A stretch of DNA of 20,010 nt from Spizellomyces punctatus DAOM BR117 (GCA_000182565.2 KQ257471.1), one strand, 5' to 3'; shown: positions 211 to 19,366, counted from the stretch's first letter. Notes: generated by a model from the sequence alone, not told the origin. Made by a program: numbers and translations.

Positions 211-312
211 GCATACCAGCCGGGATTGGCCACTCCGCGCCCGGCATGCCTGCCGGCATCCTCATGTCCGTTCTTCAAATGGACTACATCTGCGCCGGCA
301 TCTTCTGCCGCA
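211..312 (-). repeat. GC-rich palindromic dispersed repeat, composite copy overlapping the integrase stop
   Basis: The minus strand reads ATGCCGGCGCAGATGTAGTCCATTTGAAGAACGGACATGAGGATGCCGGCAGGCATGCCGGGCGCGGAGTGGCCAATCCCGGC, matching 12232-12320 and 12722-12844. Confidence 0.9.
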
Positions 313-1384
313 GAATTTCTATGTGCAAAAATGTACCCTTCGGACGAACTTTTAACTTTTTCTGTTGCAATCTTGTTTTAGTAGGTCGTGTTTGTACAGG
401 CTCCAACTGATGAATTTCTTTGTGAACTTCTTTTTGTGTTCTGGTCAATTTTACTGGTAGATGACCTGGTTTCTCGGTAATCGGTGCATTGGTTTTCTGT
501 AATTCATAGTATTTGAAACGCTGGTCTATTTCTTTACCATTGGCGTATGCTACTACGAATCGATAGCCATCGACATTGACTATATGGTATACTTCATCAG
601 ACCATTTTGCCTCGTATCCTTTTTTGAAAATATCCTGTTTGAGTAATATTCTTACATGGTCGCCAATGTCAAACTTCTTGAAATCACTTACAGCCTTGCT
701 ATTATCGCGTAGATAATCACCATTAGCAACATCGACAGGTGCCTTTTTCAATAGACTGTGATATGAAGTATTGTAGTTCATAACAAGGTCAGGAAGAGCA
801 TCTATGTAGCGCTTAGTTTTAAATACGGTCATGTATCTGGAGATAACACTTTTCAGTGTGCGATTAAACCTTTCGACCAGACCCATATGGTTATGGTCTG
901 CAACTTCAGCCATGTAATGGTTTATACCATACTTATTGAGCAATTGCTCAAAAACAATGTTGTTGTACTCTGAACCCCTATCAGTCGTGATATTTTTAGG
1001 ACGCCGCCTAGCGAGTAACTTTGTAAAACAATCAGCAATCTTTTCTCTGGTTTTATTCTTGAGAGGAAAAACAAAGGCATAACGAGAGTACACGTCTACA
1101 ATACATAACAGATAACGGTAACCATTGTTGTAGGTAGCATATTTCTGCATGTTGCACAAATCCGATTGCCATATGTGATCAACACCATTGGCTGTTATAT
1201 GCATGTAGTTAGGCTTGACAAGAGGTTTGTGTACTTGTTGCACATGCTGACTGTCGATGAATGTCTTTATATCCTTTCTGGAAATACCCTGATCCTTGAG
1301 TCTCTGGTAGAGCTTTTCTATGCTCTGAAGTCCAGTCTTGGGATCATAGTAAACTTTCTTGATTAGTTCGGTTTTTGTCCCCAT
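284..1384 (-). CDS. Retroviral-like (rve) DDE integrase, Polinton c-integrase type
   Basis: Catalytic triad motifs HIWQSDL, ITTDRGSEY and VERFNRTLK; N-terminal YYDPKTG; YNTSYHS; C-terminal FDIGDHVRI...KKGYEAKWSDEVY typical of Polinton integrases. The ORF is intact and its ATG lies 1 nt after the PolB stop. Confidence 0.95.
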   Translation of the reverse strand: MGTKTELIKKVYYDPKTGLQSIEKLYQRLKDQGISRKDIKTFIDSQHVQQVHKPLVKPNYMHITANGVDHIWQSDLCNMQKYATYNNGYRYLLCIVDVYSRYAFVFPLKNKTREKIADCFTKLLARRRPKNITTDRGSEYNNIVFEQLLNKYGINHYMAEVADHNHMGLVERFNRTLKSVISRYMTVFKTKRYIDALPDLVMNYNTSYHSLLKKAPVDVANGDYLRDNSKAVSDFKKFDIGDHVRILLKQDIFKKGYEAKWSDEVYHIVNVDGYRFVVAYANGKEIDQRFKYYELQKTNAPITEKPGHLPVKLTRTQKEVHKEIHQLEPVQTRPTKTRLQQKKLKVRPKGTFLHIEILRQKMPAQM

Positions 1385-1385
1385 T

Positions 1386-4300
1386 TTAAAAACCGAAAGG
1401 AAGTGTCTCTATGACCTTAGACTCAGAGTTAAATTCTTGAACCACACGTTTGTTGTAGACAAACTTGTACTTTTTGCAGGGTGAGTTATTTTTTTCTGGT
1501 ATGATGATCTTTGTCTTGTTACGCACACTGTGTGTTTTACTAATGTTGATTTCGCTAAAGTTAAAATTAACACAACTCTCTTTCTCAATACCTTCATCAT
1601 CAATGTACCTAGGGTTAAATACTATATCCTTCATAGACTCATGTCCAAGATTGAGTCCATTTTCATATGAAAGTGCGAAGCCTTTACAGACCGTCTTTGC
1701 TCTCCCTGTTTTGTTGAGAATGTAAGAGTAATTCTTAGCGCCACCTGAAACAAATTCTACAATATGGTCGCCTTTCAATTCATCTGTCAGGTCTCCAAGA
1801 TAATTACCATAGGGCAAAGTCTTTTCAGTTGATCCTATATCATCATCAACATATATAATAGAATCAGTATCATAGTACAACACCTTTTCCCCTACAGTAT
1901 CCAGAACACTGTAAAGTTTACAACGAGCCAAAGCGGTAGTGTATGCAGCAATGAAAATACTAGTATTCTTGTCATCACGAACAGCAGCCTTATGCAAGGA
2001 GTATGACAGATCCAAAGTGCGACCATTATCATAATCAACAATGTCGTGTATGATATATTTATCATTGAACATGATGGAGTAGTATTCATCAGGATTTTCC
2101 TCAGCATTGATCGTGATATGCTTACGCATGTTGTTCTTTTGACCGAATTTACCCCACAATGAATTGAGCATCAACTTAGCCACGAGATGTAATCCTTCAT
2201 TGTAGACAATTTTGGCTGGATCAAGACGAATACCTTGCTTGCTTTCGTAGTCGTCAATATACTTTTTTCTGTCGTCATCATTTTTACACCATTTAGGGTA
2301 CCCTGATGCTTCCTGCTTGATTTTGAGAAATGTGAAGATGTAATCTTTGAAAAGATCAGATCCCGTATTTTCGAAATGAAGAACCTCATAAACTTGAGAA
2401 ATGACATAGCCCTTTGAAAGCACTAACTTCACTTCTGGAATGCACCAAGTCCCAACAAAAGCCCTCTGTTCAACAGAGTGGCGACAAACAGAGATACCTT
2501 TTTCAGCACAATTCTTACAAAGAACAAACATGGTCTTGTTGTTAATCTTATCAGGAAGTACAGGGTGATATAACCCACGAGGGGGTACTATTCGACACTT
2601 GATGAAACCATTGTAGTTCAGTTGGCCATCAAAGTTGTTAAGAATCCTTGTGGGGAACGAGTAGCATGGGTACTCTCCAAAAGCATTTACCCAAGGATAC
2701 TGTGATGTAAAATCGCAGTATTTCACTCTTTCCTTCTCAGAACATTTGTAGTAAAGTTTGCTGGCATTTGTTCTACCACCAAAAAATGCATTACGAGGAT
2801 CTAGAGGTCGGATATATTCAATGTCGAGGTCTTTACTCATAACATAATCACATATCTTCTTGTTTGAGTCATATTCACACTCTGAGATCGAGACATAATT
2901 GTAACCTAGAGCAATCAATTCTTCATGCTTATTATCGGTATATCATCTCAAAGACTTATAAGGGACACCATGATAATTAACGGCATCATCGTCTTTGCAT
3001 TGTTTACACCCATGGAATTCACAACCATTAAATTCATACACAGTATTTGTCGAAGGAGAATAGCCATCGGCATAGAATTTTTTCCCATTTAATCGGTCAA
3101 TCCATTTCTCTCCACCGCGTAGAACATGTCGCATATCCGGAACGCCATTATCACATAGATATTCGAGCCACTGGACAGCCTTGTCTGAATGACGCCGCAT
3201 TCCTTCTTCATGATGTGTGGGTATGCTTTCTTCAGGCATGAACATATGCCTGTAAGTCCCCATACATGCCGATGCTATGGTTTTATAAGCCCAAGGATCA
3301 ATTTCACCATCGGTTGCTACAAGGAATTGCTCTCGGAACAATTTCACGGCCGCTGCTAGAATATCGACATCATTCTTGCAGTATTCAACAAGTTCCTTAG
3401 TGTAATCAAAAACATACCTACCCTTCATGCATTCGCGTAGGGTTTTCTTGTACCAGCGTCGTGCATCAGCGCGTTTATCATAGGGCATACTGTCGAATCA
3501 AAAATCATCCAAAGATGGTAAAACGCCTTTATAATCATTTGAACATTTGAACCAATGTGGAAAGTAACCCTTACGAACATGTTCCTCTAATCCAAACATG
3601 GAAGGCAACTTTGACAGTCCCATAGGCAAAAACGACATGCTATCAATGAACCGGATGTTGAACTTGGGCAGCACCATTGAAATGATCTTCAACCCATTTG
3701 AGATATACTTAGGCTTAACACCGTTGTCATTGAACTTTTTGAAGAGAAAGTGGAAATCGTAACCCTGACCATTGTGAGCAATGAATGTTGTATTAGGGTT
3801 CTTGAAGATGAATTGATAAAAAGCATCAAATTCAAAGAAGGAGTGATGCTCATGACATTGGCACACAGATTGGCATAGACCGGTACAAACTACCTTGCAA
3901 TCCGTAAACTTTACACAATGTTCACCATCATGTAGAAACTCTGATTCAAAATCAAATGCTATGATCTTGCTAATGTGCTTTCTGGGTTTCTTTTTCTGTA
4001 TGAAGCATCGATGGTCAGGAGTGACGTAAGCCTTGCAAGGATGGCAGAGATAGTGGTTGCAATCGTGTAACTCAGCACAATTACCGTCATAATAAGCACG
4101 CTCAAATACACGCCTGCAGCCACCTTCCTTGTTACATTTCCATATTTTATCGCATTTTTTCTCCTTGTGATAATCATCACAATCTCCTGAAAAGTGACCT
4201 AAGTTACAACTTAAACACAACACTAGATCATCAGGAGATCCTTGTTTACATGTGACCCGACCACAAAGGTTGCATCCTCGTTTCTTATCACATTTATGAT

Positions 4301-5528
4301 TGGTATGCTTGTGTCCTTTCATGCATTGGAAACAAAAATACGATGCACAGTAAAAGGCGTTAATCTTGGTTATGCAATCGAAATGATCCCCTTTACGTAG
4401 GATAGTAGCAGGTTTCTCATCGTATTGCTCGTTGTTAACACCTTTGACCATAAGAGGCTTACCACCGTTCTCTAGATCAACAATAACGATGTTCCTTTTG
4501 AGGAATGAAACCAACTTTGGAAAGTCGCCGTAAGACATCTTCTGACCAACAGGTAACCCGCATCCTTCATAATAGTTAGTAACAATTTTGTCCAGTGGCT
4601 TTCTTTGTTTCATGATGTACGCATATTCATTTGTTGAGTGATCCATCGCATGGAATGCTACGGATAAGGCAACTGCTCTCATACCACAATTGTTACCATT
4701 GTTTTTCACAACAATGACACAACTTTTTGACTGTGCTGATAGATGGTCATGATAGTTTTTGAAGGCGCCGCCCTTTACCGAAACTAAACGATGCACCTCG
4801 ATAGTCATGCTTTCATCGATTGATGCTATTTCAGCCGATTGCATTCTCGCAGTAATTTCATCTATCACATCAGAAGCAATCAGATCACTAACTGATACAA
4901 CTTTTGATGACCAAAATCCATTGTGTAGACTTTGATGTTGAAACCCTATTTGCACTTTGTCACCGCATTCAAGGCCTACAAGTGATTCCTTGATGACATC
5001 ATTGAAAAATGAAACAATATCATCATGAGTAGCGAAGGTGTACTTTGGATTGAACCGATAAAGTTCCTTTGTATAACCGATACCTTTGATTTTGATCTCT
5101 TTGACAGATATTAAAGGTGAGAATGATTCTTGACGCTTTCGAAGATTATACTTACGTTTAGCCCTAGTGGCAGCAGCCTTCTTAGCGGCTTCCTTTCGCT
5201 TTTTAATAGCAGCCTGAGCCCTCTCTTGAATTTCTCTCATCTCGCGCTCTTCCGCTTCTTTATTAAGCCTTCTCGTCACTCTGGCCTTTTCAGCAATAGC
5301 CTGCTTTTGAGCCTCAGTGCGTCTCGCAGCAGCAATTCTTTTTTCTCGCTCAGATTGTAGGAATCTTGGTACTCGATGTATTTGAAGGTTCTCTAGTGCT
5401 TCTCGTCGTTTCTTAGTCCAGTTCTTACGTGAGAAGTTTCCAGAGACGATCTTCCGCATCATCTTCTCGAAAGGCTTCGAGTCTTCTTTTACGTTTCTGT
5501 TTGCGATTGGGTCAAAAATCAAAGGCAT
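1386..5528 (-). pseudogene. polB: Protein-primed family B DNA polymerase (pPolB, ~1380 aa) with two in-frame TGA codons
   Basis: ORFs 3498-5528, 2943-3488 and 1386-2918 share one frame and are separated only by TGA at 3498-3500 (LDDF*FDSM) and 2943-2945 (SLR*YTDN). Motifs: ExoI IAFDFES, ExoII AHNGQGYDF, FIDSMSF, KGYFPH, ExoIII YCKNDV, FFGGRT, DFTSQYP, KLMLNSLWGKFGQ, YYDTDS. Confidence 0.93.
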
Positions 5529-5597
5529 AGTAAATAGAAATATATAGTGTTAAAAAATAAATATTTTCAAAGCTTTAAACGTATTTGTTCTTCGAAT

Positions 5598-5634
5598 GAT
5601 GCCGGGCGCAGAGCGGCCAATCCCGGCAGGGATG
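5598..5634 (+). repeat. GC-rich palindromic dispersed repeat, intergenic copy
   Basis: GATGCCGGGCGCAGAGCGGCCAATCCCGGCAGGGATG, immediately 3' of the 5636-5950 gene. Confidence 0.9.
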
Positions 5635-5635
5635 T

Positions 5636-5950
5636 TCATGCAAAGTGAGCAACTTTTACTGGATCATCAGGAATAGCCACTTTTCGATTTATTTTAAAGT
5701 ATCTCATCTTAGGAGGAGGTGGTGGTGGTTTTCGTATACATGGTAACTTTTCTATAGCATACATCTTTGAAATAGGCGATTCTGCTAACCCATGTATTAT
5801 ATTATGAATGTATGAGCGCGAGACACCTAACCTGTTAGCAATCTCTATGGCTGCCCGATAGTCATTTACAAATGTTCTAGAACCATCTTCTTCGATCTTG
5901 TATACCCTGTAGCGATCCTTCGTGTTTATCGATCCTGATTTGCATCCCAT
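5636..5950 (-). CDS. Small putative DNA-binding protein, NUMOD1/HTH-like
   Basis: The segment FVNDYRAAIEIANRLGVSRSYIHNIIHG matches a NUMOD1-type helix-turn-helix pattern. It has a proline-rich basic tail and an AT-rich upstream region. Confidence 0.6.
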   Translation of the reverse strand: MGCKSGSINTKDRYRVYKIEEDGSRTFVNDYRAAIEIANRLGVSRSYIHNIIHGLAESPISKMYAIEKLPCIRKPPPPPPKMRYFKINRKVAIPDDPVKVAHFA

Positions 5951-6212
5951 GTTAAAATATATTGTGTATACAAAATATTATTTCTCTTTGTTTAAACGTG
6001 TGTGTTTATTAGCAAATGTTGTACAAAAGCTCTATAACAACGCCCCTACATGACGCTAAACAAAGGGATATCTATGTACATTGTGCTATGAAACACCTTT
6101 ACAGACTGTTTTTGTCGTTTTGTATTTTTTTTTTTCTGGTTTTGTTGTTTTGTAATTTTTTTTTGTTGATTTCATGGATTTTTTAGCATGTGTCAACGGT
6201 AATTGAAGAGAA

Positions 6213-6812
6213 TCAAGCAGCGGCACTACTGCTTCCTACATCTGGAGGATTGATAACATCAGCATGGACAATGTCCTGATCGCTCACTTTAGCCTTGACG
6301 CTCTTTCTGTGCTTAGGAGTGCTAGCTGCTATGAGTGCGTTAATCTGCATCTGTTGCTGCTCGATACGCTCCATGAGCATTTGCTCTAAATTAGCAGATT
6401 CCCCATCACGCTCAGGGCTTGACCGCTCGACACGTCTACGTTTACCCTTTTTGTGGTTGTAATCGCTGTCATCGGCATCATCGGAATCGTCGTCAGAACC
6501 AGAACTCAAGGTTTCACCATCAGACTCGAAATCTTTGAACTTTCTCTTTAACTTGAGAGATGAAGATTTCCATTTATCCTCTTCTCGCTCCTTCCGCTCT
6601 AGGAGTCGTCCCAGATGACCTTGAAGTGATTCTAGCAACTCCTTGTCTTCCTTATATATCTTCTGATTATCAGCCATATTTTCTAATAAACACTCACTTT
6701 GCTCGAAGGTGAGATCCTCTAGACCCATCTTGAGAGCACGACGCACTATGGGATGTAGCAAGCCTCCTACAAAGTGCGTCACTTGCCCCCATTGACTCTT
6801 TGCAATGGACAT
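6213..6812 (-). CDS. Hypothetical protein with acidic tract, NLS-like basic patches and a short coiled coil
   Basis: 199-aa ATG ORF on the same strand as its neighbours, containing SSGSDDDSDDADDSD, KKGKRRR and LMERIEQQQMQINAL. Confidence 0.65.
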   Translation of the reverse strand: MSIAKSQWGQVTHFVGGLLHPIVRRALKMGLEDLTFEQSECLLENMADNQKIYKEDKELLESLQGHLGRLLERKEREEDKWKSSSLKLKRKFKDFESDGETLSSGSDDDSDDADDSDYNHKKGKRRRVERSSPERDGESANLEQMLMERIEQQQMQINALIAASTPKHRKSVKAKVSDQDIVHADVINPPDVGSSSAAA

Positions 6813-6957
6813 GTTTCAAATTCGGTTAGGTGTTTCAGAAAATGTAGCTATGTTTCAGATTCGGTTAGATGTTTCAGAATTATGGCGCGTGTTTCAGAAC
6901 ACGTATCTGATGTTTCAGATTCGGTTAAATGTTTCGAATCATACCTGATGTTTCAAA
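6812..6957. repeat. Phased array of 8 TGTTTC(A/G)(G/A)A motifs, 19-21 bp apart
   Basis: Motif starts at 6812, 6831, 6851, 6870, 6890, 6911, 6930 and 6949. The spacer TTCGGTTA recurs three times. Confidence 0.9.
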
Positions 6958-7056
6958 CCCGTACTCATGCTAATGGGAGAAAAGATACACCGAGTGCCTT
7001 TTTATGCCACCGGCTTGTACTCAGGGATGCCCTTCCGTTCAATGGAAAGAATCTTG

Positions 7057-7082
7057 GCATCCCTGCAGGGATGCGCCGGCAT
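7057..7082. repeat. Perfect 18-bp palindrome built from the repeat terminus
   Basis: GCATCCCTGCAGGGATGC (7057-7074) followed by GCCGGCAT. CAGGGATGC is the 3' end of the repeat family. Confidence 0.75.
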
Positions 7083-7109
7083 AGTCTTGGCATTTCTTGG
7101 CGCCATTTT

Positions 7110-7283
7110 TTAAACATAAACAACACGCCTCACGACTCTTCCAGAACCGTAGCGTCACTTACGTGTTGCTGCGGCTTTTCTAGCAGCGATGATGCGCCTG
7201 TTTCTTGCACGAGCAGCCGCTCTAAGTCCTTTATTCGGCATGGCCGATACGTTGATGAGTTTTCTATGGGATTTCTTAGCCAT
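7110..7283 (-). pseudogene. Small Arg/Lys/Ala-rich basic protein (putative DNA-condensing core protein), one in-frame TGA
   Basis: Manual translation: MAKKSHRKLINVSAMPNKGLRAAARARNRRIIAARKAAATRK*RYGSGRVVRRVVYV-TAA, with TGA at 7155-7157. It lies directly downstream of the MCP gene and is absent from the ORF track. Confidence 0.7.
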
Positions 7284-7342
7284 AATGTGATTCAATATTA
7301 GGGTGTCCTATACATATGTGAAGAATATAATTGTTCGCATTA

Positions 7343-8689
7343 CTAAGCCGGAACCAATCTAATACCATCTTTGTTGATGCTCATCACATGATCAGTAGTC
7401 CAAAATACATGAAATGTCTTGTCCTTGAATGTAGGAATGCCGGCGAAATCGGCTGTTTCCGGAGGATTTGGATATTGAGAGACATTGATTAGAATGCGCC
7501 CATCGGCTAGAGTCTGAAGACCACCACCAATCATGTCGGGGGTTTGCTTGAAATTCTGCCTCCACGACCAATGTTTTATCTTTTTTCCTCCTAGATCCCA
7601 TCCTTCCAAATCAGACATAGTGGGCGCAAACTTGACATCGTTAAAGTCCTTGTTCCTTTGTGAAAGAGCATACATCTCTGGGTCTATAGTAGAGACAACT
7701 CCTGTTTTCTCAGAGCCATGTGCAATAGCCTTCCCTTGTGGGAACCGTTCCATTCCTACTTGGATAGAAATGGTTCTAATACCTGCATCGTCCGAATAAT
7801 TCAATTTGTCTACATCAGTCCTTAAATTGTCAGTTGTCACCAACATCAATGACGAAACAGAGGACTGTTCACCTGTTACAAGCGAGAGTTGTTGTACTCG
7901 ACTATCTTGTCCTGCAAACTCTTGACTCCACACTATTTGCATGGGGATAGTCAGGGGTGTAGGATCCTCAGCCTGCATCAAAGCAAGCACTTTATCATAG
8001 TATTCCTTGACCAGTTCAGCAAACTGACAAATCAGTTCATTTTGTTCAATCCTGAAATATTTGATTATTCCGGATGTGGGAAAAATTTTCGTGAGTTCAG
8101 TCTCAGCAGTCATTTCAAGGGTTACTCCTCCTTTTACAAGACATAGAGGAAAAGCCACTTCATTTTGAAAGAATGACAGCGATGAGCCGGTGACAGTGTA
8201 AGCCCTGTTTGTAGCAACCACTGCTGAACGGTCATTATCCTCACTCGAATAATACTTGCATTGGCCAAGATGTTGTTTGGTTTCCCACGATGTTAGAGCG
8301 TTTTCATGCACCGTAAAAAGGTTGTAGTCATTGAGATCTTCAATGATCCTTCCATTGATCAGAATAGATTGCCGTTTCCATACAGCATCTGTTCCTGATT
8401 GACATAGCCTGTGGGTTGCAGTGGCAGAAACAACTTCTTTGTAATCATCATCAAGCCCTACTAGTCTATATTTGTGCAATGTTTCATTAACGAGCCAGAA
8501 ACGCTTGTCATCTGCTATTTTAAAAACTAGTTTCCTGCCTGCTCGACAGTCCCCACTTCCGTTTGTTGGCTCGAAGCGAACCTGACTAGATGGCTGGAAG
8601 TTTAGAATGACTCCGTTTTTTGTGGATCGTTTATAAGTAAATGCCGATGGGACACGTCTGACCTCTGTTACTTCAATATCGGATGACAT
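7343..8689 (-). CDS. Major capsid protein, double jelly-roll, PLV type
   Basis: 448 aa and beta-rich. The N-terminal pattern RFEPTNG...RKLVFKI...AVWKRQSILINGRIIEDLNDYN resembles PLV MCPs. It is adjacent to the packaging ATPase and the ORF is intact. Confidence 0.8.
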   Translation of the reverse strand: MSSDIEVTEVRRVPSAFTYKRSTKNGVILNFQPSSQVRFEPTNGSGDCRAGRKLVFKIADDKRFWLVNETLHKYRLVGLDDDYKEVVSATATHRLCQSGTDAVWKRQSILINGRIIEDLNDYNLFTVHENALTSWETKQHLGQCKYYSSEDNDRSAVVATNRAYTVTGSSLSFFQNEVAFPLCLVKGGVTLEMTAETELTKIFPTSGIIKYFRIEQNELICQFAELVKEYYDKVLALMQAEDPTPLTIPMQIVWSQEFAGQDSRVQQLSLVTGEQSSVSSLMLVTTDNLRTDVDKLNYSDDAGIRTISIQVGMERFPQGKAIAHGSEKTGVVSTIDPEMYALSQRNKDFNDVKFAPTMSDLEGWDLGGKKIKHWSWRQNFKQTPDMIGGGLQTLADGRILINVSQYPNPPETADFAGIPTFKDKTFHVFWTTDHVMSINKDGIRLVPA

Positions 8690-8848
8690 GGTTTACTTTA
8701 CACATCTAGAAAAAAAAAACGTCATTTTTTAAGCAAAAGTGACATCAAAAATTGTGCCTTTCGGAAAGGAGTTTGCTGTCCTAAATAGCCTGAACTCAGT
8801 CGGTGTAGCTTAACAAGTTACAATGGTTGTCAAAGCGAGGGGGTCAAA

Positions 8849-8867
8849 GGGGGACAGCCTGTCCCCC
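8849..8867. terminator. GC-rich hairpin at the 3' end of the ATPase gene
   Basis: GGGGGACA-GCC-TGTCCCCC is a perfect 8-bp stem overlapping the TAG at 8867-8869. The function is inferred from position only. Confidence 0.4.
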
Positions 8868-9538
8868 TACGAAAAACCAACTCTAAAAGGTCATTTCGAA
8901 CTTTGTAGATTTATGTGCACAAAATGAAATGGTTTCTTTGTATTAACCATAACGAACTTTTCAAATACATCTTCAGGTAAAGCGAGAGATAAGCCTGCTT
9001 CGACCATTTTCTTAAGTTCGCTTTTCAAAGGTCTAAAAATGATCCAGTTTGTTGCATTGCTACGTACAGCGGGACTATTGTGATAAAAATATTGACTCGA
9101 CAGGATGCAAGTGATACCGGCATGCCTTCCACGTGTTGCCAACTCATCGAGTGACTTCTTATGTCCCTTTTGCATGTTGTAGTCATCTATGATTAGAAGC
9201 AGGTCTCGTTTTCTTCCACTTCGAACAAATTCATAAAGTTGCTCTTCGTGTATAAAATTGAGTATTTCATTGGAAATCTTGTCAAATATATGAACCTTTT
9301 TGCTCGTTCTTAAGGGGTTCCAATTGGTGTCATGCGGATTTGGTGTGAATATTATGATATTCGAATACTGCTTCTTCAAGAACAATTTGCATATCACAGC
9401 AATGTTTAGCGTTTTACCGCTAAATCGAGCACCATTGTATATGATAAAACCATACTTTCTAGGAAGCCGTGGATCTGTATTATCCTTTATGCGTCCAGAG
9501 ACTTGACTAGGTAAAGGGGCAATTGTGATTGGCTTCAT
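8867..9538 (-). CDS. A32/FtsK-HerA family genome-packaging ATPase (in-frame TGA 8 codons before the probable original stop)
   Basis: Walker A GARFSGKT, Walker B LLIIDD, RGRH arginine finger, SSQY, VRSN. Probable start MKPITI at 9538 (alternative ATG 9577). TGA at 8891-8893 is followed in frame by PFRVGFS-TAG, which resembles the usual C-terminal FRxxF ending. Confidence 0.92.
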
Positions 9539-9585
9539 TGCACTTGTTTTTATTTGCTCTCTGTATCTATAATACATTAGAAGAA

Positions 9586-10329
9586 ATGAAAAAGTTGATT
9601 CTCGATAGCAACAGGGCGACGAACGGAAACAAGAATGAACCTAAATGGACTCTAGCCGAACCCATCACATGTGATAAAATTTGATACAATTCGATCATTT
9701 TGCCCCTTTCGTGGGACATAGTAAATGACAAGAACAATATTGTCTCCTTTTATGATGCTGGGATGGGTAATGCTGCAAAGACTTTTGCTATTCCTCCTGG
9801 GACATATAGCCCTGATGATTTGGTCGATGCACTGACTGCTGGATTTAACTCGACTGGGACGCAAGCATACACCGTAGAATACAATCATATAAACAATCAA
9901 ATCACAGTGACCGCGGGTACAACACCATTCAAAGTTCTCTACCCTCAAACCACAGCAAGCAAACTGCTCGGATTAGTTCAGACGCAGCAATCTGACCCTG
10001 GGAGATCAATAACTTTTGCGAATCCAATCGATTTGACAGGTGTTAAGATGGTGCTCGTCTCATCATCAAACTTACGTTCTAATGATGTTGTAGTTGCTGG
10101 AGCCGATGATCTGAATATTCTAGCATCGATTCCAATAAGCCAGGAAATAGACACCGTGCTGTGTGCGCAGAATTATTTCGATACCGACTTCATTGACACG
10201 GAGTCAGGCCTTGTTAGTACCATCGACATCCGTTTGCTTGATGCTGAAACGCTATTGCCGATTGATTTACAGGGCAAAGGGTTCACTTTGGTTCTTGATT
10301 GTCATTCCTCCGGCTTTGCAGATGATTAA
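9586..10329 (+). pseudogene. Minor capsid protein (penton, single jelly-roll), one in-frame TGA
   Basis: ATG 9586 reads MKKLILDSNRATNG...LAEPITCDKI*YNSIILPLSWDIVNDKNN, in frame with ORF 9700-10329; TGA at 9682-9684. Motifs LDS, IPPGTY, KLLG, ILASIP and IDIRLLD...IDLQG are typical of PLV/Polinton pentons. Confidence 0.82.
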
Positions 10330-10356
10330 TTTTTTTTCATTTGGAACATGTAAAAG

Positions 10357-10674
10357 ATGTTGCGTCAAAAATTCGCAAACTTTCTCTCAAGTGCAAAGAA
10401 CTTTGGTCTTCGAGCATTGAACAGTTACAGCAAAGTAAACAATGGAATTCGACAATTTGTAAACCATGCTGGCCAAGCCAGAGATATTTATGGAAAGGTT
10501 CATCAATCTCTAGTCCATGACGAATCTGTACCCATCAAAGTAAGAGAGACAATTTCACGAGGATGAGGTTATATCAATGATCTCCATAAAGGTCTAGGGC
10601 GATCCTATGAGATCCAACAGAATTTTGATTCAGCGCTAAGGAAATTGCTTCCTGTCGAATTAGCGGGGTATTAA
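10357..10674 (+). pseudogene. Hypothetical 105-aa basic, amphipathic protein, one in-frame TGA
   Basis: ORF 10357-10566 continues in frame past TGA 10564-10566 (ISRG*GYINDLHKGLGRSYEIQQNFDSALRKLLPVELAGY) to TAA 10672-10674. Confidence 0.6.
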
Positions 10675-10688
10675 TGCTACTTTTAGCG

Positions 10689-10967
10689 TCAAATGATTTC
10701 ATTCAAGTCATCAATGTAAAGAGGATTTTCAGGAATAATAACATACTCGTTCCAGTTAATACCACTCACATCAGCGTCTGGAATGATGGTTTCCTTACTG
10801 TATATATTCATCATGCCTGAGCCCGGCATTGGCACTCCGAGTTCATTCGCAGAGTGAATGAACGAGTCAGAATCGTCTTTGACGGTTCCTCCGCGCCCAG
10901 CATGCCTTTCAGCCAACTTCCTCCTCAAACGCTCTTGTATCCGTTCCTTCCTTTGTTGAGACAACAT
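10689..10967 (-). CDS. Hypothetical protein
   Basis: Probable start MLSQQRKERIQERLRRKL at 10967, downstream of an AT-rich divergent spacer (10968-11017). It ends TGA-CGC-TAA and contains two degenerate copies of the GC-rich repeat. Confidence 0.55.
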   Translation of the reverse strand: MLSQQRKERIQERLRRKLAERHAGRGGTVKDDSDSFIHSANELGVPMPGSGMMNIYSKETIIPDADVSGINWNEYVIIPENPLYIDDLNEII

Positions 10968-11017
10968 GCTTCTTTTTTTTAATAATACTAATATAGTAAA
11001 ATACAGAATAGAACGAT

Positions 11018-12078: not shown

Positions 12079-12888
12079 ATGCCTAAAAAAAAGGAATCTA
12101 TACCGGCGCAGAGCCAAATGCCGGCAGGCATACCTGACCAGGACATTACAGATGAAGAACAAAGTTTGAATGATGATGATGAAACTAATGACGATGATCA
12201 TCAAGACTATGTTCAAGAACTTGTAAACAAATATGCCGGCGCAGAGCCAAATGCCGGCAGGCATGCCGGGCGCGGAGTGGCCAATCCCGGCAGGGATGCC
12301 GATCCAGGCAGGGATACCGGAGAGGTCAATACCAGCGCTCCCAAAAAACGTACTGCATCAGAGAAGCAGCGAGCACATTTAGAAAAAAGCCGAGAAAAGG
12401 CTCTTCAGGTTAGACGAGAACTTGCCGCCAAGAGAAAAGAAGAGAGAGAACTAGAAAAGAAGAGAAAAGAGGATGAACGGATTCTTGCTAAGGCCGAAGC
12501 CCTTAGAGTGGAACAGGAAAAATGTGTCGAGGCTAGGCTCCGCAACTATATGAAGGACTTACAAAGTCACAAGACTAAAGCGAAGCGAATTAAAACGCCA
12601 ATACCGAAAAAAAGACGGCAGATTGTAGTTGAGGAATCATCAGATGATTCTTCAGATGATGATGATTATCAGGTTGTTAAAGTCATCAAGAGAAAGAGAA
12701 CTCGCCCTGTTCATCCCACTCGCGCAGATGTAGTCCGTTTTAAAAATGGACATGAGTATGTCGGGCACGCAGAACCATATCCCAGTGCAGAGCCATATGC
12801 CGGCAGGCATGCCGGGCACGGAGTGGCCAATCCCGGCAGGGATATCATGCGTACCAAACCACCATCGATCTTTGATGACATTGTATAG
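12079..12888 (+). CDS. Hypothetical charged coiled-coil protein carrying in-frame palindromic repeat insertions
   Basis: Probable start MPKKK at 12079 (AAAATG context). It contains KRTASEKQRAHLEKSREKA, a K/E/R coiled coil, an acidic SSDDSSDDDD tract and three repeat-derived segments. Confidence 0.72.
   Translation: MPKKKESIPAQSQMPAGIPDQDITDEEQSLNDDDETNDDDHQDYVQELVNKYAGAEPNAGRHAGRGVANPGRDADPGRDTGEVNTSAPKKRTASEKQRAHLEKSREKALQVRRELAAKRKEERELEKKRKEDERILAKAEALRVEQEKCVEARLRNYMKDLQSHKTKAKRIKTPIPKKRRQIVVEESSDDSSDDDDYQVVKVIKRKRTRPVHPTRADVVRFKNGHEYVGHAEPYPSAEPYAGRHAGHGVANPGRDIMRTKPPSIFDDIV
12232..12320 (+). repeat. GC-rich palindromic dispersed repeat, in-frame intragenic copy
   Basis: TATGCCGGCGCAGAGCCAAATGCCGGCAGGCATGCCGGGCGCGGAGTGGCCAATCCCGGCAGGGATGCC; a shorter copy lies at 12100-12134. 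Confidence 0.9.
12722..12844 (+). repeat. GC-rich palindromic dispersed repeat, composite in-frame intragenic copy
   Basis: GCGCAGATGTAGTCCGTTTTAAAAATGGACATGAG...GCAGAGCCATATGCCGGCAGGCATGCCGGGCACGGAGTGGCCAATCCCGGCAGGGAT. Confidence 0.9.
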
Positions 12889-15168
12889 ACCAAATGTCGG
12901 CATGCAATTCATTTTCTAAGCTATGATGATATAAAGGAATAAGAAGATGCCTTTGCCTAATAGCATTCAAGGCACATATACGGTTCGAAGAAATTTAGAA
13001 GTCCTAGATAATTTCAAGTCCGGAAAAGTTAAAGCCAATTCTATCTATGGAGAGAGCCTACGGAATAAAGATGGTATAGTCACTATACTCGATTTGGATA
13101 GTCAAATGCCTAGTCTCTCCATTCAGAAAAATAAAGGTAAATATACCATCTCTCTTGCCGAGACAACTTATGTTTTTCCATTAATTGATGATGAACATGA
13201 TGTCAGGCTTGTAACAGACGATACTCTGCTTATAACAGAAGACGGCTTATCTGTTAAACCAGAGACACTCCTGCAACCTCTCTATAGGGCTCCCGACTCA
13301 CGAACAGTAAGCCTAAACATTGATGATGATGAACTAAAAGTTGAGGATGGAAAATTAACAGTCATACCTTATAACTATGATTTCCCACTCTACAGGGAGG
13401 CCGAATCACATACGGTTGGTTTACAAGCAGATGATAGTTTGCTTATAACTGAAAACGGTCTATCGGTTAATTTTCCTGATCCTGAGACGCTGAAAAAGCC
13501 GTTGTATCGTGACCAGAGCGGCCTTGGAATCAAACTTCATAAAAGTCTAAAGGTGAACAATAATGACGAATTGGAAACTAACATTCAGTCGGTACTAAAA
13601 GCATTTGGCGCTCTGAAATCGAGTTCAGGTGCTGATACGCTGTTAGACATCGGGTCTTCATGGCTCGACTTTGGATTCGATAGTTTGACCGAAATGACTG
13701 ATGTGTTAGGAGAAGTAGACACCACAGCCATTCGCCTAATGGTAGATAGTACCTCATTCAGCCAAGCGGGTTCGAGATTGTCCCTGAAATCACCCGGATA
13801 TGAACAAATCATGTATGGTAACCTTACTTATGGCTACTCGGGAAGTTCTTCATTCACCTATTCGTCCACGCTTCAGGAGTTGCGTGTACCCAATGTAAAG
13901 TTAAGCGGAACATTGCCTGCGATTGGAGGTGGCTCGTATGCTGTAAGTAAAGACTATCTTTCGCAATTTTATCAAGGCTCTCAAACTGGAGCGATCGCCG
14001 TGAGTCCGGAGGCTGCTGGACGTCGAGAGATAGGCTGTTTGGTCGATAATCAGACCATCAGAATTGTTGGAAATGCACTCACAGGTGGTACATTTTTCAG
14101 GACTTTAATGGCGTATCTATTCGACCTGGAACGACCAATGATGTGGTATTATCTCTTAAATGTGAGGCTGGCAGTTGTCTCCAAATGGTCAAAGCAGATA
14201 CCATTAAAGACGTACTGACTTGCAGCAATGGTATCGAGAGAGTACAGAATGACCTTCAACTCGATCTAAAAGTTGATGCTAACAGCGGTTTGGCTATGGT
14301 CAACAGGGGTACCATACGGGATATCTTTACAGCCTCCCAAGGGGTAAGCAGGGTGGGCAACGAGTTCAGGTTATCTCTTACTGCACAGTCACCCGATCTG
14401 ACTCTAAACAATGGTGTTCTGAGTTCAAACATCGCTGCGGGAATTGGACTGCAAAAAAATGGTGCGATTTTGTCAACGAACCTAAGAGGTATCAATGGAG
14501 TGCAAGTTAGCGGCAATTTGATTTCATGTTCACTTACAGGAAGTGATACCGTCCTTCGAGTAGGGGATACTCTGAAAGGTAATTATGTGGGCAGTACCAA
14601 CTCATATGGAAGTGTGGTCGTTGTTGGTAATACCATTCAGTACAACATGATTCCTCCACAATTTGTGTCTAATTCACCAAATCTCATCATTACAGGTTCG
14701 TACCCACTCTACAACTTTACACTCATTGACCCTATGCCATTATCGAAACAAAGGGATACCGATAATACTGAACAGAGTGATACCGCAGAAGTGTTGAAAA
14801 CTGATGTTCCTGGTGGGAATGTGGTCGTATTGTCCGGGGCTACACCACTGACTACCATTCCATTTCCTGTGATGGTATCTCCACCACTGACAATTCCGAT
14901 GGCTGTCAATAGTATTCTGCCCATCGTCTCAACCTTTCCTTGGGGGATGATTTTCGGAGGGTCACGCAAACGTAAGGTTCAACGAGATGCGGAAGGCCAA
15001 CCTATACTCGATGGAGATGGAAACCCTGTTTACAAACCAATCGACCCTGTTACATTCATGCCTCCATTGGAGCCAGGAAGCAATGTAGCAATTGCAAGTG
15101 ACCCTGTAGGTGGCTGCACTCGTCTCTTGTTTGATACGCCTTCATGCTATCGCACCATCAAATACGAA

Positions 15169-15329
15169 TACCCGCAGCAAGCAATCAATCTCTCAATGTT
15201 AAGAGATTATGATACCAAGTTGATCAAGCCTTGGGTGACAAGCCTGATAATGGCATTACCCGCAGCAAGCAATCAATCTCTCAATGTTAAGAGATTATGA
15301 CACCGAAGTTATCAAACCTTGGGTGACAA
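15169..15329 (+). repeat. Direct duplication, 73-nt unit, 88-nt period
   Basis: 15169-15241 versus 15257-15329: the first 44 nt are identical (TACCCGCAGCAAGCAATCAATCTCTCAATGTTAAGAGATTATGA), the remainder is diverged, and the period causes a frameshift. Confidence 0.92.
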
Positions 15330-16784
15330 CAGGATTAGCATCGAAGCAAAACTTATCTCCTTTGCTTGACAATATCAGTAGTCTGACCCCAGCCGATGGC
15401 ACTTTTTTGATGGGTGGAAATGGTGGTTTTTTCCAGATTGTACCTAAAGATGAAATCCTCAGCGCATATCAGCCGTTGATTACACCAGCGAGTGTCCTTA
15501 ACCTTAGCGGTTTAACGGTACAGAATTCAAATACCAATGCTATGGCAATCACACTAGGAAACACTAGCGCTGCACAGACATGGAATATCCATGTGGCTGG
15601 TTCATCGAATGGAAACCTAATTTCTGGAGCATTAGGCTTTTACTCGTCATACCAAGATAAAGGATACGTATTCCGAATTGACCCATCAGGTAATACGGTC
15701 GTGAGTGGAGGCCTTGGAGTTTCGACCGATGCCTACGTTGGCGGAATGCTCTATATTGCTGGCATTGAAGCCGCAACTCAGAAATTCGTAATTGACAATA
15801 TTGCACCGATTACTCAGTCATTATCTTCATTGACAACGACAGTTACTAACAACAATAATGCCGTTACTACTGCACTCGCATCGAAGCAGCCTATGAACGC
15901 TACAACTAATAGCCTGTACACGATGACGGTGCAGCCTGACTCTTGGTTGTATTCTTCTGCTGGGACTACGATCGAAAATGTGACTTCCAATCAAGTTAAA
16001 GGTATCCTCGATATTGCAACAAATGCTGGTGTGAACACACTGCTTTCTGGGAAACAGAACAACATCACTACATCAACTAATCTGAGTCTTGCTTCTGTTA
16101 CTGCAAATGGTTATTTGAGTGTTCAAAATGCTGCCAATCCCACCTTTATGTCACTGGTAAATACAGCATCAAATGTGACATGGGGACTTCGAGTCGCTGG
16201 TTCTTCAGCCGATGGCTCTAACCCAGCAGGTGGGTTTGGAATCAACTGTTCATATAACAACGTAGGCTATGTGTTCAAGATTTCTAATACAGGTATTACA
16301 CAGATAACAAATACCTCACAGTCAACCAGTTCGACTACAGGAGCACTTCTAGTAAGTGGTGGTTTAGGTGTTGCAAAGGACGTATATGCAGGAGGAAATG
16401 TAATTAGTAGCACCTCTGTGGATGCTCCAAACTGGGTGCAATCTAGAAACATTTCGTCTGGCACTAATGCCTACGCGGCCATTGGTTGTGCCAATGATAG
16501 CGGCAATGGTGCGTTACTTTTCCTCAACTCTTCTACAAGGACTGCTGATGGCTCGTCGAATAACGCTACTCTCCGCAACGACTGCGGGGACATGAACATC
16601 CAAGGAAAATCAGGTCTCGGATTGGGTCTACGGATTGTATCCATTTCAAATGAAGTGAAAGTCTTGACCACTACAGACTCCTCATCTGCAACAACAGGGG
16701 CTTTACAGGTATCTGGGGGTGTTGGAATTGCTAAAAAACTTTGGGTAGGGACAGGATTATATTGCAACAGTCTATATTTGCCGG

Positions 16785-17384
16785 TGTAACGGATTTTTTG
16801 TTGGTAGACTACAGTAAAGACAACTTGGGTCTCCTAGCAGGTTGTGTGGGTGTCCGTACTAGGAATCGTAGTCTCCAAATCCTTTCTTTGGGCGTCGGTA
16901 GCGACTTGAGGGCGAGAGGCAAGGAGAGTCGGTTAGTTGTGAACCGAGCAGGATTTAGAGGCTTCGGTACGGGTGATCAGGCCGTTGAAGCGCTCTGTTA
17001 GGTTCCTGTTAACCTAAGATTGGAGTTGAGAAGCGAGTTATGGGGATTTTTTGTCGCTACGGCTTCTGCCCCCGACTTATTTTATTGAATACATCCTTTT
17101 TATACAAGATTCTTGGATAAACTGTTAAACTAAACTAAACTAATGGGTGTCGCTGCACCGCAACTGATTTATTGGTGGCGGTACCGATCTCTTCCTTTTC
17201 CGCACTGGCTCGGGCCTCCACAGGTTGTACGAGGCACGCTGAAATCTAATGCGCCAATTGCCATTCTCCGAACCGGTTTTTTCGGTCGCGGTAACCCAAT
17301 CGGTGGAGTTGGTCACGCGATTCGTGCTTCCCGCGTCCGATTTGGGCTTACTCGCGATCTCTCGAAGACGTCCTCGTCGTTACA
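16785..17384 (-). mobile_element. Solo LTR of an LTR retrotransposon (600 bp, 4-bp TSD)
   Basis: Termini TGTAACG...CGTTACA (7-bp inverted repeat, TG..CA), with CCGG duplicated at 16781-16784 and 17385-17388. Removal restores the fibre frame (YLP-ATSNGFFLQ). On the minus strand TATAAAAA (17097-17104) is followed by AATAAA (17081-17086). Confidence 0.9.
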
Positions 17385-19366
17385 CCGGCGACGTCAAACG
17401 GCTTCTTTCTACAGTCCAATACCAGCGGTAACGGACAGATATTTCAACTCACAGCCAATAATGTACGGACTCAGTTAACCTTGAGCAACATGGTGTATGA
17501 CGGATATTGTGATGCATGGTTTACTGGGTCTATAAAAGCACACAATCCTACACTGGGCACTGGATTAATAATTAGTTCAAATGGCAACATCATAACCTCG
17601 GTTAATACAAACGGAAATGTGAACATTACACCGAATGGTACGGGGATAGTATTTATAGGCGCTACCACGGATTCATCTTCTTATTCTACAGGTGCATTAC
17701 AAGTTGCAGGAGGTGTTGGAATATCGAAGAATCTCTACTGTGGAGGGAGTCTGTACTCCAATAATTTGAAAGTTGCAACTGAAAGTTATGTAGGGTCAGC
17801 CATTGCAAATAAACAGACATCGAGTCCGCTCCTAGATTCTATCAGTGGACTCGCAATATCAGCGAATTCATTTATTGTTGGAAGTTCTGCTACATCATTC
17901 TCCACGAAAACCATTGAAGAAGTAAAGTCAATTCTAGGCATTACAAATGTCGACCTCTCAGGGAAGCAAAATGCCTCTCCTTTACTCTCTACTCTCGCTG
18001 CGATGTCACCAATGAGCAATATGTTTCTCATGGGAGATGATGTCCAAGGATTCACTCTCACAAATGACATCAAAGTACGAAGCATTTTAAACATTGTTGA
18101 TTATTCCTCAGACATAACTTCATTGCAAGGAAGCATTGCAACCCTACAAACATCATTATCATCAAAGCAGGACACCATATCCAGTAGTACCGCATTATCA
18201 ACAGGAACACTTGTTGTAAATGACATAACCGATTCCACATCAGCCATCACTGGAGCACTTCAAGTGAAGGGTGGAGCAGGAATCGCTAAGAAACTATGGG
18301 TTTCTGGTGCACAAATGACCGTCCAAAATACTAACTATAGTGTTGGCCAAACCAATACCCTCATGTTTTCACACGCAATGCAAAATATATGTTCTATACA
18401 ATCCTATTTGCCTGGTAGTAACAATGTAGACCTGAATTTCTATGTCGGACAAAACAACGCATCTATTCAAAGTATGTCGCTTAATGGAGCAACCGGAAAT
18501 GCTTATTTTGATAGAGATGTCATCATCGGAAACACCAGTGTAAATGCTTTAAGAAGCATTCAGGTCAAGAATGTAGACACAGGAACAAATGCTTGTTCGA
18601 TTTTGTATCTAACTGCATCCGGTGGTTCGTCTGTTCTTTTTATGAATGGAAGTAATCGTTCAGTTGACGGAGCGCAGAATTGTTTGACTCTTCGTAATGA
18701 TGTGGGTGCCTTGCGCCTTCAATCTCAGGGAGCAAAAGGTATTTACGTTTATCCTAACACAGGTAATGTCGTTGTTGAAAGCACCACTCCAGCGTTATCG
18801 AGTACAACTGGTGCTTTGGTTGTCGCAGGTGGACTTGCGGTCGGTGCCCATGTCATATCAGGTGGAAACCTTTATGCAAATACAGCGGTCTACGCTAATG
18901 GACAAAAATGTGCGACTGAACAATGGGTCTCTACACAAGTACAAGCCTTCCCTAAGATTCAGGTGTTCAAGATGCTAACTAAAGATGTAATCACAACTGG
19001 TAGCGGAACAAAGACGTTCTATGTTTCTACAGCCGGCCGGGCATTGATACGCTATACCATCAACTTGCATGGCACCAATAATGCAGGAGGAATGCTCAAT
19101 GTGTATCTAGGAACTAATGCCGGTTCGATGCCGTCAGTCTTTTCCAGTGATTTTAACTATAATGCTGGAGTGAACAGAACAGTTTATGCCTCATTCATCG
19201 TGTCGGGTTTAGTTCCTGATGTAGCATATTTTACCAATTTTTCAGCAGTAAATGCAGCACCGGATACAAGTGCAGACGTAACAATTATAGAGATTACGGA
19301 ACTTGGTGCTTAGAACTCGAACGAGCGCCATTATTAAGAAAAAAATGAAGCTATGAAGACATAAAA

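What the first reader, a model, noticed from the sequence alone, without database searches (positions are those of the whole stretch)
2943..10566. Six in-frame internal stops, all TGA and best read as Arg: CpG-decay signature versus UGA recoding
Seen: TGA interrupts otherwise continuous frames at 2943 and 3498 (PolB), 7155 (core-like protein), 8891 (ATPase), 9682 (penton) and 10564. I found no internal TAA or TAG in the reconstructed genes, and the well-defined genes end in TAA or TAG. The context KAAATRK*RYG parallels KAAATRAKRKY in PolB and points to Arg. Established: deamination of methylated CpG creates stops only through CGA>TGA, whereas fungal RIP at CpA would give TAA/TAG. Supporting changes: PolB GLH (CAT, 2187-2189) where family members usually have R, KLV (GTG, 2421-2423) where A is usual, and CG>TG/CA variants among repeat copies (10889-10907, 12817-12819). 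Inference: host CpG-methylation silencing is most parsimonious; UGA read-through or reassignment is the less likely but more novel alternative.
Basis: partly seen in the sequence, partly recalled or inferred. Interest (0 to 1): 0.72.

Follow-up and report, generated by a model that had tools for sequence, protein, structure and literature searches.

The report
Decayed chytrid provirus with CpG-made stops
This is a silenced, decaying copy of a Polinton/adintovirus-like virus integrated in a chytrid-fungus genome, and its six premature TGA stops are ordinary mutation damage at CpG sites, not a sign of an altered genetic code.

Summary
All six in-frame TGAs exist. Four lie on the minus strand (2943, 3498, 7155, 8891) and two on the plus strand (9682, 10564). 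Conserved sequence continues past each one or sibling reads read through it.

The element is a Polinton/MELD-virus relative of Powellomyces chytrid viruses.

- **Sibling DNA reads:** they show CGA where the window has TGA at 7155 (10 of 10 reads) and at 9682 (17 of 23).
- **Sibling protein:** a Spizellomyces punctatus gene model has Arg at the 3498 site.
- **Close relatives:** they have Arg at the 2943 column (3 of 19), the 8891 column (3 of 7) and the 10564 column (1 of 4).
- **CpG signature:** of the 23 best-supported places where the window has T/A against the reads' C/G, 20 are CpG in the reads (p 6e-10).
- **Other damage:** the copy also has a 1-nt frameshift, an 88-nt duplication, a 600-bp transposon insertion and substitutions at invariant PolB columns.

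Recoding is effectively excluded and CpG decay is supported. The kind of event is known, so interest is low.

The parts
284..1384 (-). rve-type integrase, 366 aa, intact frame, ends TAG
   Evidence: Pfam PF00665 E 1e-17; stop
1386..5528 (-). Protein-primed family-B DNA polymerase, 1380 codons, broken by two TGA. It also differs from relatives at 6 columns that are invariant in 19 of 19.
   Evidence: PF03175 E 2e-42; translation; 67% identical to a Powellomyces hirtus PolB; deviant columns F676, Q943, F958, V1036, H1114, A1264
2943..2945 (-). Premature TGA, PolB codon 862
   Evidence: The column is R in the 3 closest of 19 relatives and variable in the other 16. No sibling read row was shown for this place.
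3498..3500 (-). Premature TGA, PolB codon 677
   Evidence: Sibling gene model P0124 has R here. 14 of 19 more distant relatives have G and none has R. An X2 contig covering 3315-4120 with 0 differences confirms the window's letters.
5636..5950 (-). 104-aa ORF with a weak helix-turn-helix match; ends at TGA
   Evidence: HTH_3 E 0.0028, below Pfam's cut-off; stop
6213..6812 (-). 199-aa acidic ORF, annotated in public records; ends at TGA
   Evidence: Exact sequence is in the protein collection, as a singleton cluster; stop
7110..7283 (-). Small Arg/Lys-rich ('core-like') ORF of 57 codons with a premature TGA at 7155-7157, 15 codons before its TAA
   Evidence: Frame view. At 7157, reads show the sibling letter that makes CGA: 10 of 10 X16 reads and 1 X1 contig; 1 X2 contig keeps the window's letter.
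7343..8689 (-). 448-aa ORF, candidate double-jelly-roll major capsid protein (a lead only)
   Evidence: No Pfam hit. Atlas feature hits are to viral clusters, with DJR-like_dom on 10% of members of one cluster and Capsid_N on 24% of another.
8867..9577 (-). A32/FtsK-type packaging ATPase, 236 codons, with a premature TGA at 8891-8893, 8 codons before its TAG
   Evidence: PF04665 E 2.7e-6; 74-84% identical to 7 relatives, including FtsK of Powellomyces chytrid fungus MELD virus 1 and 4; the tail after the break is conserved; column is R 3, Q 2, K 2
9586..10329 (+). Penton-like small capsid ORF, 247 codons, with a premature TGA at 9682-9684 (codon 33)
   Evidence: Frame view. 9682 reads C (CGA) in 17 of 23 X16 reads and at 5.7 of 8 contig depth in X1. 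Atlas hits are to viral clusters, a lead only.
10357..10674 (+). 105-codon ORF of unknown role with a premature TGA at 10564-10566 (codon 70)
   Evidence: 6 relatives at E<=0.001. The C-terminal part is conserved; the column is Q, R, T, T in 4 relatives.
12947..19313 (+). Four ORFs whose frames join into one fibre-like gene of about 1890 codons, broken at three places
   Evidence: Frames 2>1>2>0 join across the three lesions listed below. Weak Av_adeno_fibre match, E 0.0082, below cut-off. Powellomyces MELD viruses are described as carrying adenovirus-fibre-like genes (PMC8502044, passage).
14086..14087 (+). 1-nt length difference to siblings that shifts the fibre-like gene from frame 2 to frame 1
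   Evidence: Siblings have one more letter behind 14086: 2 of 6 X16 reads and 1 X1 contig. Both frames are open across the place.
15169..15329 (+). 88-nt tandem duplication (two 73-nt copies, 92% alike) that shifts frame 1 to frame 2
   Evidence: family D3. The same peptide is read once in each frame. No sibling lacking the duplication was seen.
16785..17384 (.). 600-bp MITE-like insertion with 12-nt perfect terminal inverted repeats, flanked by CCGG on both sides. It splits the fibre-like gene and supplies its TAA.
   Evidence: Inverted repeat 16780-16791 / 17378-17389. Loose read ends at 16785 and 17384; DNA depth is about 278 against 7-17 elsewhere. 604 nt accounts for the shift from frame 2 to frame 0.
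12231..12298 (+). GC-rich, CCAAT-containing motif. Further copies lie at 210-259 (-), 5599-5634, 12098-12164, 12777-12843, and a partial copy at 10889-10907 (-). The copies differ mainly by CG>TG/CA.

Best explanation
The window is an integrated, transcriptionally near-silent and decaying copy of a Polinton/Maverick-type 'MELD' virus. It is related to the Powellomyces chytrid fungus MELD viruses and sits in a chytrid genome, probably Spizellomyces punctatus or a close relative.

The six in-frame TGAs are nonsense mutations. Methylated CpG in the silenced element deaminates (C>T), and the only codon this turns into a stop is CGA (Arg), which becomes TGA. That is why every break is TGA and none is TAA or TAG.

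Shown here:
- The six TGAs are premature.
- Sibling copies carry CGA at two sites and Arg at a third.
- This copy's private changes are overwhelmingly CpG>TpG/CpA.
- The copy carries other disabling lesions.

Inferred:
- The remaining three sites were CGA.
- The cause is 5mC deamination rather than another CpG-specific process.
For: **Identity of the element**
- Pfam finds PolB, rve integrase and A32 ATPase.
- PolB is 67% identical to a Powellomyces hirtus PolB.
- The ATPase is 74-84% identical to 7 relatives, two of them named FtsK of Powellomyces chytrid fungus MELD virus 1 and 4.
- A sibling PolB gene model in Spizellomyces punctatus is 87% identical by the search table and 79% and 76% over the two BLASTP segments, gaps included.

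**Sibling letters at the stops**
- 7157 gives CGA in 10 of 10 X16 reads.
- 9682 gives CGA in 17 of 23 X16 reads.
- The sibling protein has R at codon 677.

**Relatives' columns**
- R in the 3 closest of 19 at codon 862.
- R 3, Q 2, K 2 at the ATPase site.
- R 1 of 4 at 10564.

**CpG signature**
- 40 of 893 read differences were shown. In 23 of them the window has T/A against the reads' C/G, and 20 of those 23 are CpG in the reads, against a 25% background (p 6e-10).
- In the reverse direction only 2 of 10 are at CpG, against a 17% background.
- The per-site rate ratio is about 32.
- 12 of 24 amino-acid differences to the sibling PolB are single CpG transitions: 5 lost in the window, 7 lost in the sibling.
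- Composition: CpG O/E 0.81, TpG 1.17, CpA 1.22.
- All-TGA has P about 3e-4 without a CpG excess and 0.28 with a 40-fold excess; 54 CGA codons remain.

**Other decay**
- 6 substitutions at PolB columns invariant in 19 of 19 relatives.
- A 1-nt frameshift at 14086, an 88-nt duplication and a 600-bp insertion in the fibre-like gene.

**Expression**
- In RNA run X15 (about 6% of it read), depth is at most 0.43 per strand in 28 of 30 bins. The exceptions are the insertion bin and its neighbour.

**Literature**
- In Spizellomyces, '5mC is confined to transposons' (PMC12695648, passages).
Against: - At the 3498 column, 14 of 19 PolB relatives have Gly and none has Arg. Only the one sibling model shows Arg, and protein cannot tell CGA from AGA.
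- At 2943, 8891 and 10564 no sibling DNA was seen. The relatives' columns are mixed (R, Q, K, T, D and others).
- Only 40 of 893 read differences were displayed ('best supported'), so the CpG share could be biased by that choice.
- CpG depletion is mild (0.81).
- 4 of the 6 substitutions at invariant PolB columns are not CpG transitions, so decay is not only CpG-driven.
- Methylation of this locus was not measured.
- The RNA depth is not normalised to a host gene.
Confidence: 0.88

Rival explanations
1. UGA is decoded (reassigned or read through, for example as Arg) in this virus or host, so the genes are intact and CGA/TGA are synonymous.
For: - All six breaks are TGA, and no TAA or TAG occurs inside the ORFs.
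- The seven genes with a recognised family or recognised relatives end in TAA or TAG.
- Siblings and relatives often show Arg at these columns.
Against: - The copy has lesions that no recoding can rescue: a 1-nt frameshift, an 88-nt frameshifting duplication, a 600-bp insertion, and substitutions at 6 PolB columns invariant in 19 of 19 relatives.
- TGA is in the minority at 9682 (6 of 23 reads) and absent at 7157 (0 of 10) in run X16.
- Three other ORFs in the window end at TGA.
- No tRNA gene lies in the window.
- The CpG bias affects non-coding and non-stop positions alike.
- RNA depth is near zero.
- From my own knowledge, not tested here: no nuclear code change is known in chytrids.
Confidence: 0.02
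2. The CpG>TpG changes come from an active, repeat-triggered, methyltransferase-dependent hypermutation (a RIP-like process aimed at CpG), not from slow spontaneous deamination of 5mC.
For: - CpG sites changed about 32 times more often per site than other C/G in this copy.
- The sibling copy has lost different CpGs (7 against 5), so each copy was hit independently.
- The element is multi-copy (both alleles seen).
- A DNMT4/RID lineage is confined to fungi (PMC12344493, passage).
Against: - A 30-fold excess is within what passive deamination of heavily methylated CpG can give (my own knowledge).
- The base before the mutated C shows no strong preference: T 8, C 5, A 4, G 3 of 20. I counted these by hand from the contexts printed.
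- CpG O/E is still 0.81 and 54 of about 60 CGA codons survive, which is unlike a RIP burst.
- Classical RIP (CpA>TpA) is not seen: TpA O/E is 0.74.
Confidence: 0.08
3. The TGAs are assembly or sequencing errors, or strain polymorphisms of no consequence.
For: At 7157, none of 10 X16 reads supports the window's letter.
Against: - An X2 contig keeps the window's letter at 7157.
- 6 of 23 X16 reads keep T at 9682.
- An X2 contig covering 3315-4120 with 0 differences includes the TGA at 3498.
- Six independent errors that all produce TGA from CGA are not plausible.
Confidence: 0.02

Closest known systems
Powellomyces chytrid fungus MELD viruses (adintovirus-like Polinton/Maverick relatives; Starrett et al. 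2021, PMC8502044)
   Same: - A PolB close to that of Powellomyces hirtus (67% identical). The paper describes the Powellomyces PolBs as Beta-adintovirus-like.
- A packaging ATPase 74-84% identical to 7 relatives, two of them named FtsK of MELD virus 1 and 4.
- rve integrase, fibre-like gene, chytrid host.
   Different: This copy is integrated and broken: six nonsense codons, a frameshift, a duplication and a transposon insertion. The published genomes were assembled from one sequencing data set as apparently complete viruses (passages read only).
5mC-silenced endogenous viral elements and transposons of protists and early-diverging fungi (Sarre et al. 2024, PMC11244446; PMC12344493; PMC12695648)
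   Same: A viral insertion in a lineage where 5mC marks transposons. It shows little RNA, loss of CpG and erosion by transposon insertion and duplication.
   Different: Those papers concern giant-virus insertions or transposons in general. Here it is a mid-size Polinton-like virus, and methylation was not measured on it. I saw PMC11244446 only as a search listing with abstract.
CGA>TGA nonsense hotspots at methylated CpG (classical in vertebrate genes and pseudogenes)
   Same: The same codon logic: CpG transition is the only transition route that makes stops exclusively of the TGA type.
   Different: The host is a chytrid fungus, and the target is a provirus rather than a host gene. The comparison is from my own knowledge, not from a call.
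Fungal repeat-induced point mutation (RIP)
   Same: C>T mutation of repeated DNA in a fungus.
   Different: The context here is CpG, not CpA. TpA is under-represented (0.74), and no TAA or TAG stops occur.

Membership tests
Polinton/Maverick - MELD virus | Protein-primed family-B DNA polymerase | tested here: met
   PF03175 E 2e-42; 1100 relatives at E<=0.001
Polinton/Maverick - MELD virus | Retrovirus-like (rve) integrase | tested here: met
   PF00665 E 1e-17
Polinton/Maverick - MELD virus | FtsK/A32 packaging ATPase | tested here: met
   PF04665 E 2.7e-6, above cut-off; 74-84% identical to 7 relatives, two of them named FtsK of Powellomyces MELD viruses
Polinton/Maverick - MELD virus | Double-jelly-roll major capsid protein and penton | tested here: inconclusive
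   No Pfam hit. Only Atlas feature leads to viral clusters. No structure was predicted.
Polinton/Maverick - MELD virus | Adenain-like maturation protease | tested here: inconclusive
   None of the 18 ORFs scanned matched a protease family. Several ORFs remain unassigned.
Polinton/Maverick - MELD virus | Terminal inverted repeats with target-site duplication | tested here: inconclusive
   Inverted copies at 210-295 and 12722-12843 belong to a dispersed motif. The element's ends may lie outside the window.
Decay by deamination of methylated CpG | Private changes are C>T/G>A at CpG | tested here: met
   20 of 23, against a 25% background, p 6e-10; 12 of 24 amino-acid differences to the sibling
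Decay by deamination of methylated CpG | Sibling copies keep CGA where this copy has TGA | tested here: met
   Two sites by DNA reads and one by sibling protein. Three sites were not visible.
Decay by deamination of methylated CpG | CpG deficit with TpG/CpA excess | tested here: met
   CpG 0.81, TpG 1.17, CpA 1.22; the deficit is mild
Decay by deamination of methylated CpG | 5mC present on the element | not testable with these tools
   Literature only: in Spizellomyces 5mC is confined to transposons (PMC12695648)
Stop-codon reassignment / programmed UGA read-through | TGA conserved at the site among close copies | tested here: not met
   CGA in 10 of 10 and 17 of 23 sibling reads
Stop-codon reassignment / programmed UGA read-through | Genes otherwise intact | tested here: not met
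   Frameshift, 88-nt duplication, 600-bp insertion, and 6 changes at invariant PolB columns
Stop-codon reassignment / programmed UGA read-through | TGA not used as terminator; suppressor tRNA present | tested here: inconclusive
   Three ORFs end at TGA, but their natural ends are unverified. No tRNA in the window. No host genome is held.
RIP (repeat-induced point mutation) | C>T at CpA giving a TpA excess and TAA/TAG stops | tested here: not met
   TpA O/E 0.74; 0 internal TAA/TAG; the mutated context is CpG

The most novel reading that the evidence does not exclude
The CpG-specific damage is not passive ageing. It would be the product of an active, copy-triggered, CpG-directed hypermutation defence in chytrids (a RIP analogue acting at CpG) that disables freshly integrated MELD viruses. 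The family still has near-intact, possibly active siblings: most reads carry the sense codon at the two sites seen.
Probability: 0.08. Interest if true: 0.55.

Novelty: new member of a known kind. Interest (0 to 1): 0.2.

Why it matters
This removes a candidate genetic-code change. The all-TGA pattern is the expected footprint of CpG mutation in a silenced provirus.

It has modest positive value. It documents a Polinton/MELD-virus family with several diverged copies in a chytrid, apparently a laboratory model species. Some sibling copies keep sense codons where this one is broken. That could guide a search for intact or active copies, and could be used to calibrate CpG mutation rates at 5mC-marked elements in early-diverging fungi.

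Tried and rejected
- **Own genome:** not held, so I could not align genomic copies, measure the host's CpG O/E or check the host's code.
- **Reads (the only lay allowed):** only 40 of 893 'other letter' rows were printed. The sites 2943, 3498, 8891 and 10564 are not among them, which says nothing either way.
- **Sequencing-run search:** no RNA holder listed.
- **Exact look-up of 10 window ORFs:** 2 were in the collection, both singleton clusters, so no near-identical siblings were found that way.
- **Related DNA loci:** Viral contigs gave 1 locus at 24% identity, which I did not use. Metagenome contigs gave nothing in two scans. So I obtained no relatives' DNA and could not read codons (CGA versus AGA) in relatives.
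- **Rfam and tRNA scans:** 0 matches and 0 genes.
- **Earlier-findings look-ups:** nothing.
- **Atlas query with X at the break:** I then sent the uninterrupted part of that ORF as it stands.
- **Selenocysteine:** considered and dropped without a test. Six sites in unrelated viral genes, with CGA in the siblings, make it pointless.
- **Joining ORF 11018-12037 to ORF 12016-12888 through the 1-nt sibling difference at 12070:** the frames do not fit (my arithmetic), so those two ORFs remain unexplained.
- **Supplements:** I did not open those of the papers cited. The table of integrated elements in PMC7805220 may list a Spizellomyces element that is or is not this one.

Full report
**What is in the window**

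The minus strand carries the following:
- an rve integrase (284-1384);
- a protein-primed family-B polymerase (1386-5528);
- a weak HTH ORF (5636-5950);
- an acidic ORF (6213-6812);
- a small basic ORF (7110-7283);
- a 448-aa candidate capsid protein (7343-8689);
- an A32/FtsK ATPase (8867-9577).

The plus strand carries a penton-like ORF (9586-10329), a 105-codon ORF (10357-10674) and, from 12947 to 19313, four ORFs that join into one fibre-like gene.

- Pfam supports PolB (E 2e-42), integrase (1e-17) and ATPase (2.7e-6).
- The best PolB relatives are from the chytrid Powellomyces hirtus (67%) and an unnamed contig (62%).
- The ATPase is 74-84% identical to 7 proteins, including 'FtsK [Powellomyces chytrid fungus MELD virus 1]' and '... 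virus 4'.
- Starrett et al. (PMC8502044, passages read) describe six MELD virus genomes from one Powellomyces data set. These combine adenovirus-fibre-like genes with a Beta-adintovirus-like PolB.
- A sibling PolB gene model (P0124, 87% identical) is annotated in Spizellomyces punctatus.
- Two of the window's own ORFs are in NCBI/EukProt on a 321,667-nt contig.

So this is an integrated Polinton/MELD-virus copy in a chytrid genome, and the host is not an animal or a crop by this evidence.

**The observation**

All six TGAs are present and in frame. Four are on the minus strand and two on the plus strand. None is a natural gene end:
- PolB continues through both breaks, with conserved motifs on either side.
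- The eight residues after the ATPase break (PFRVGFS-type tail) are conserved in 7 of 7 full-length relatives.
- The 35 residues after 10564 align in 4 of 4 relatives.
- At 7155 and 9682, sibling reads carry a sense codon.

In 19 ORFs read with TGA open, the only internal stops are these six. ORFs were delimited by TAA/TAG, so this count cannot detect a gene split by TAA/TAG.

Three further ORFs end at TGA (5636, 6213, 10689).

**Decay or recoding: sibling evidence**

No genome is held, so I used public reads of the same species label.

| Site | What siblings or relatives show |
|---|---|
| 7157 (first letter of the minus-strand TGA) | Letter that makes CGA in 10 of 10 DNA reads of X16 and in one X1 contig; one X2 contig keeps the window's letter |
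| 9682 | C (CGA) in 17 of 23 X16 reads and most X1 contig depth |
| PolB codon 677 (3498) | Sibling protein P0124 reads DDF-R-FDS. 14 of 19 more distant relatives have Gly and none has Arg, so Arg is specific to this lineage |
| PolB codon 862 (2943) | Arg in the 3 closest of 19 relatives |
| ATPase (8891) | R 3, Q 2, K 2 |
| 10564 | Q, R, T, T |

Only 40 of 893 differing places were printed. The other four sites are not among them, so they remain unseen at the DNA level.

**Decay or recoding: mutation spectrum**

- Of the 40 printed differences, 23 have T/A in the window against C/G in the reads. Of those, 20 are TpG/CpA in the window and CpG in the reads. The background is 25% (binomial p 6e-10).
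- In the opposite direction only 2 of 10 are at CpG (background 17%).
- The per-site rate at CpG is about 32 times that at other C/G.
- Against the sibling PolB, 24 residues differ in 475 aligned. Twelve of these are single CpG transitions, 5 lost in the window and 7 in the sibling. Each copy is therefore decaying on its own.
- Composition agrees but is mild: CpG O/E 0.81, TpG 1.17, CpA 1.22, TpA 0.74.
- With the window's codon content, six of six TGA has probability about 3e-4 without a CpG excess, 0.03 with a 10-fold excess and 0.28 with a 40-fold excess. 54 CGA codons survive.

**Other damage**

- PolB differs from all 19 relatives at six invariant columns. The other four are not.
- The fibre-like gene is broken in three places:
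  - Siblings have one more letter behind 14086, which joins frame 2 to frame 1.
  - An 88-nt tandem duplication (15169-15329) shifts frame 1 to frame 2.
  - A 600-bp insertion (16785-17384) has 12-nt perfect inverted ends and CCGG on both flanks. It supplies the TAA of the upstream ORF, and its 604 nt explain the shift to frame 0.

No recoding could rescue these lesions.

**Expression and methylation**

In the one RNA run laid (about 6% of it read), depth is at most 0.43 per strand in 28 of 30 bins. The exceptions are the insertion's bin (about 180 per strand) and its neighbour. This is not normalised to any host gene.

[quoted passage not shown] Methylation of this locus was not measured here.

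**Verdict**

UGA recoding is effectively excluded.

The one correction concerns the 3498 column: the broader family has Gly there, and only the immediate lineage has Arg.

An active CpG-directed hypermutation cannot be separated from passive deamination with these data. There is no sign of a preferred flanking base (T 8, C 5, A 4, G 3 of 20, counted by hand) or of a mutation burst.

The phenomenon is of a known kind. The element is a new, decayed member of the chytrid MELD-virus group.

Noticed in passing
window 16785-17384: A 600-bp MITE-like element with 12-nt perfect terminal inverted repeats and CCGG on both flanks. DNA depth is about 278 against 7-17 elsewhere in the window, and RNA depth is about 180 per strand, with poly-T loose ends at 17045-17047. 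This suggests a high-copy, transcribed small transposon of the host. It has no Rfam match.
   Followed up: partly
window 210-259, 5599-5634, 10889-10907, 12098-12164, 12231-12298, 12777-12843: A GC-rich motif of 36-67 nt containing CCAAT recurs in both orientations. One copy lies about 70 nt upstream of the PolB start and another about 100 nt upstream of the fibre-like gene. It may be a viral promoter or regulatory repeat. The copies differ mainly at CpG.
   Followed up: partly
window 12947-19313: Four ORFs have frames that join into a single gene of about 1890 codons. It has a weak adenovirus-fibre N-terminal match (E 0.0082, below cut-off). This is unusually long for a Polinton-type fibre.
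   Followed up: partly
window 1386-5528, PolB residues about 250-520: The polymerase has a long N-terminal extension with many conserved Cys/His columns that are shared with its relatives (nearly invariant C and H columns in alignment A1). This part has no Pfam match.
   Followed up: no
window 6820-6960 (minus strand): Short tandem peptide-like repeats (HLTESET-type units in one frame) lie in the gap between the acidic ORF and the small basic ORF. Their function is unknown.
   Followed up: no
window 10683-11164: Sibling contigs differ here by a 9-nt insertion behind 10683, a 1-nt deletion at 10990 and a replaced stretch at 10803-10901. The 149-aa minus-strand ORF overlaps the start of the 339-aa plus-strand ORF by about 120 nt. 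The gene structure here is unresolved.
   Followed up: no
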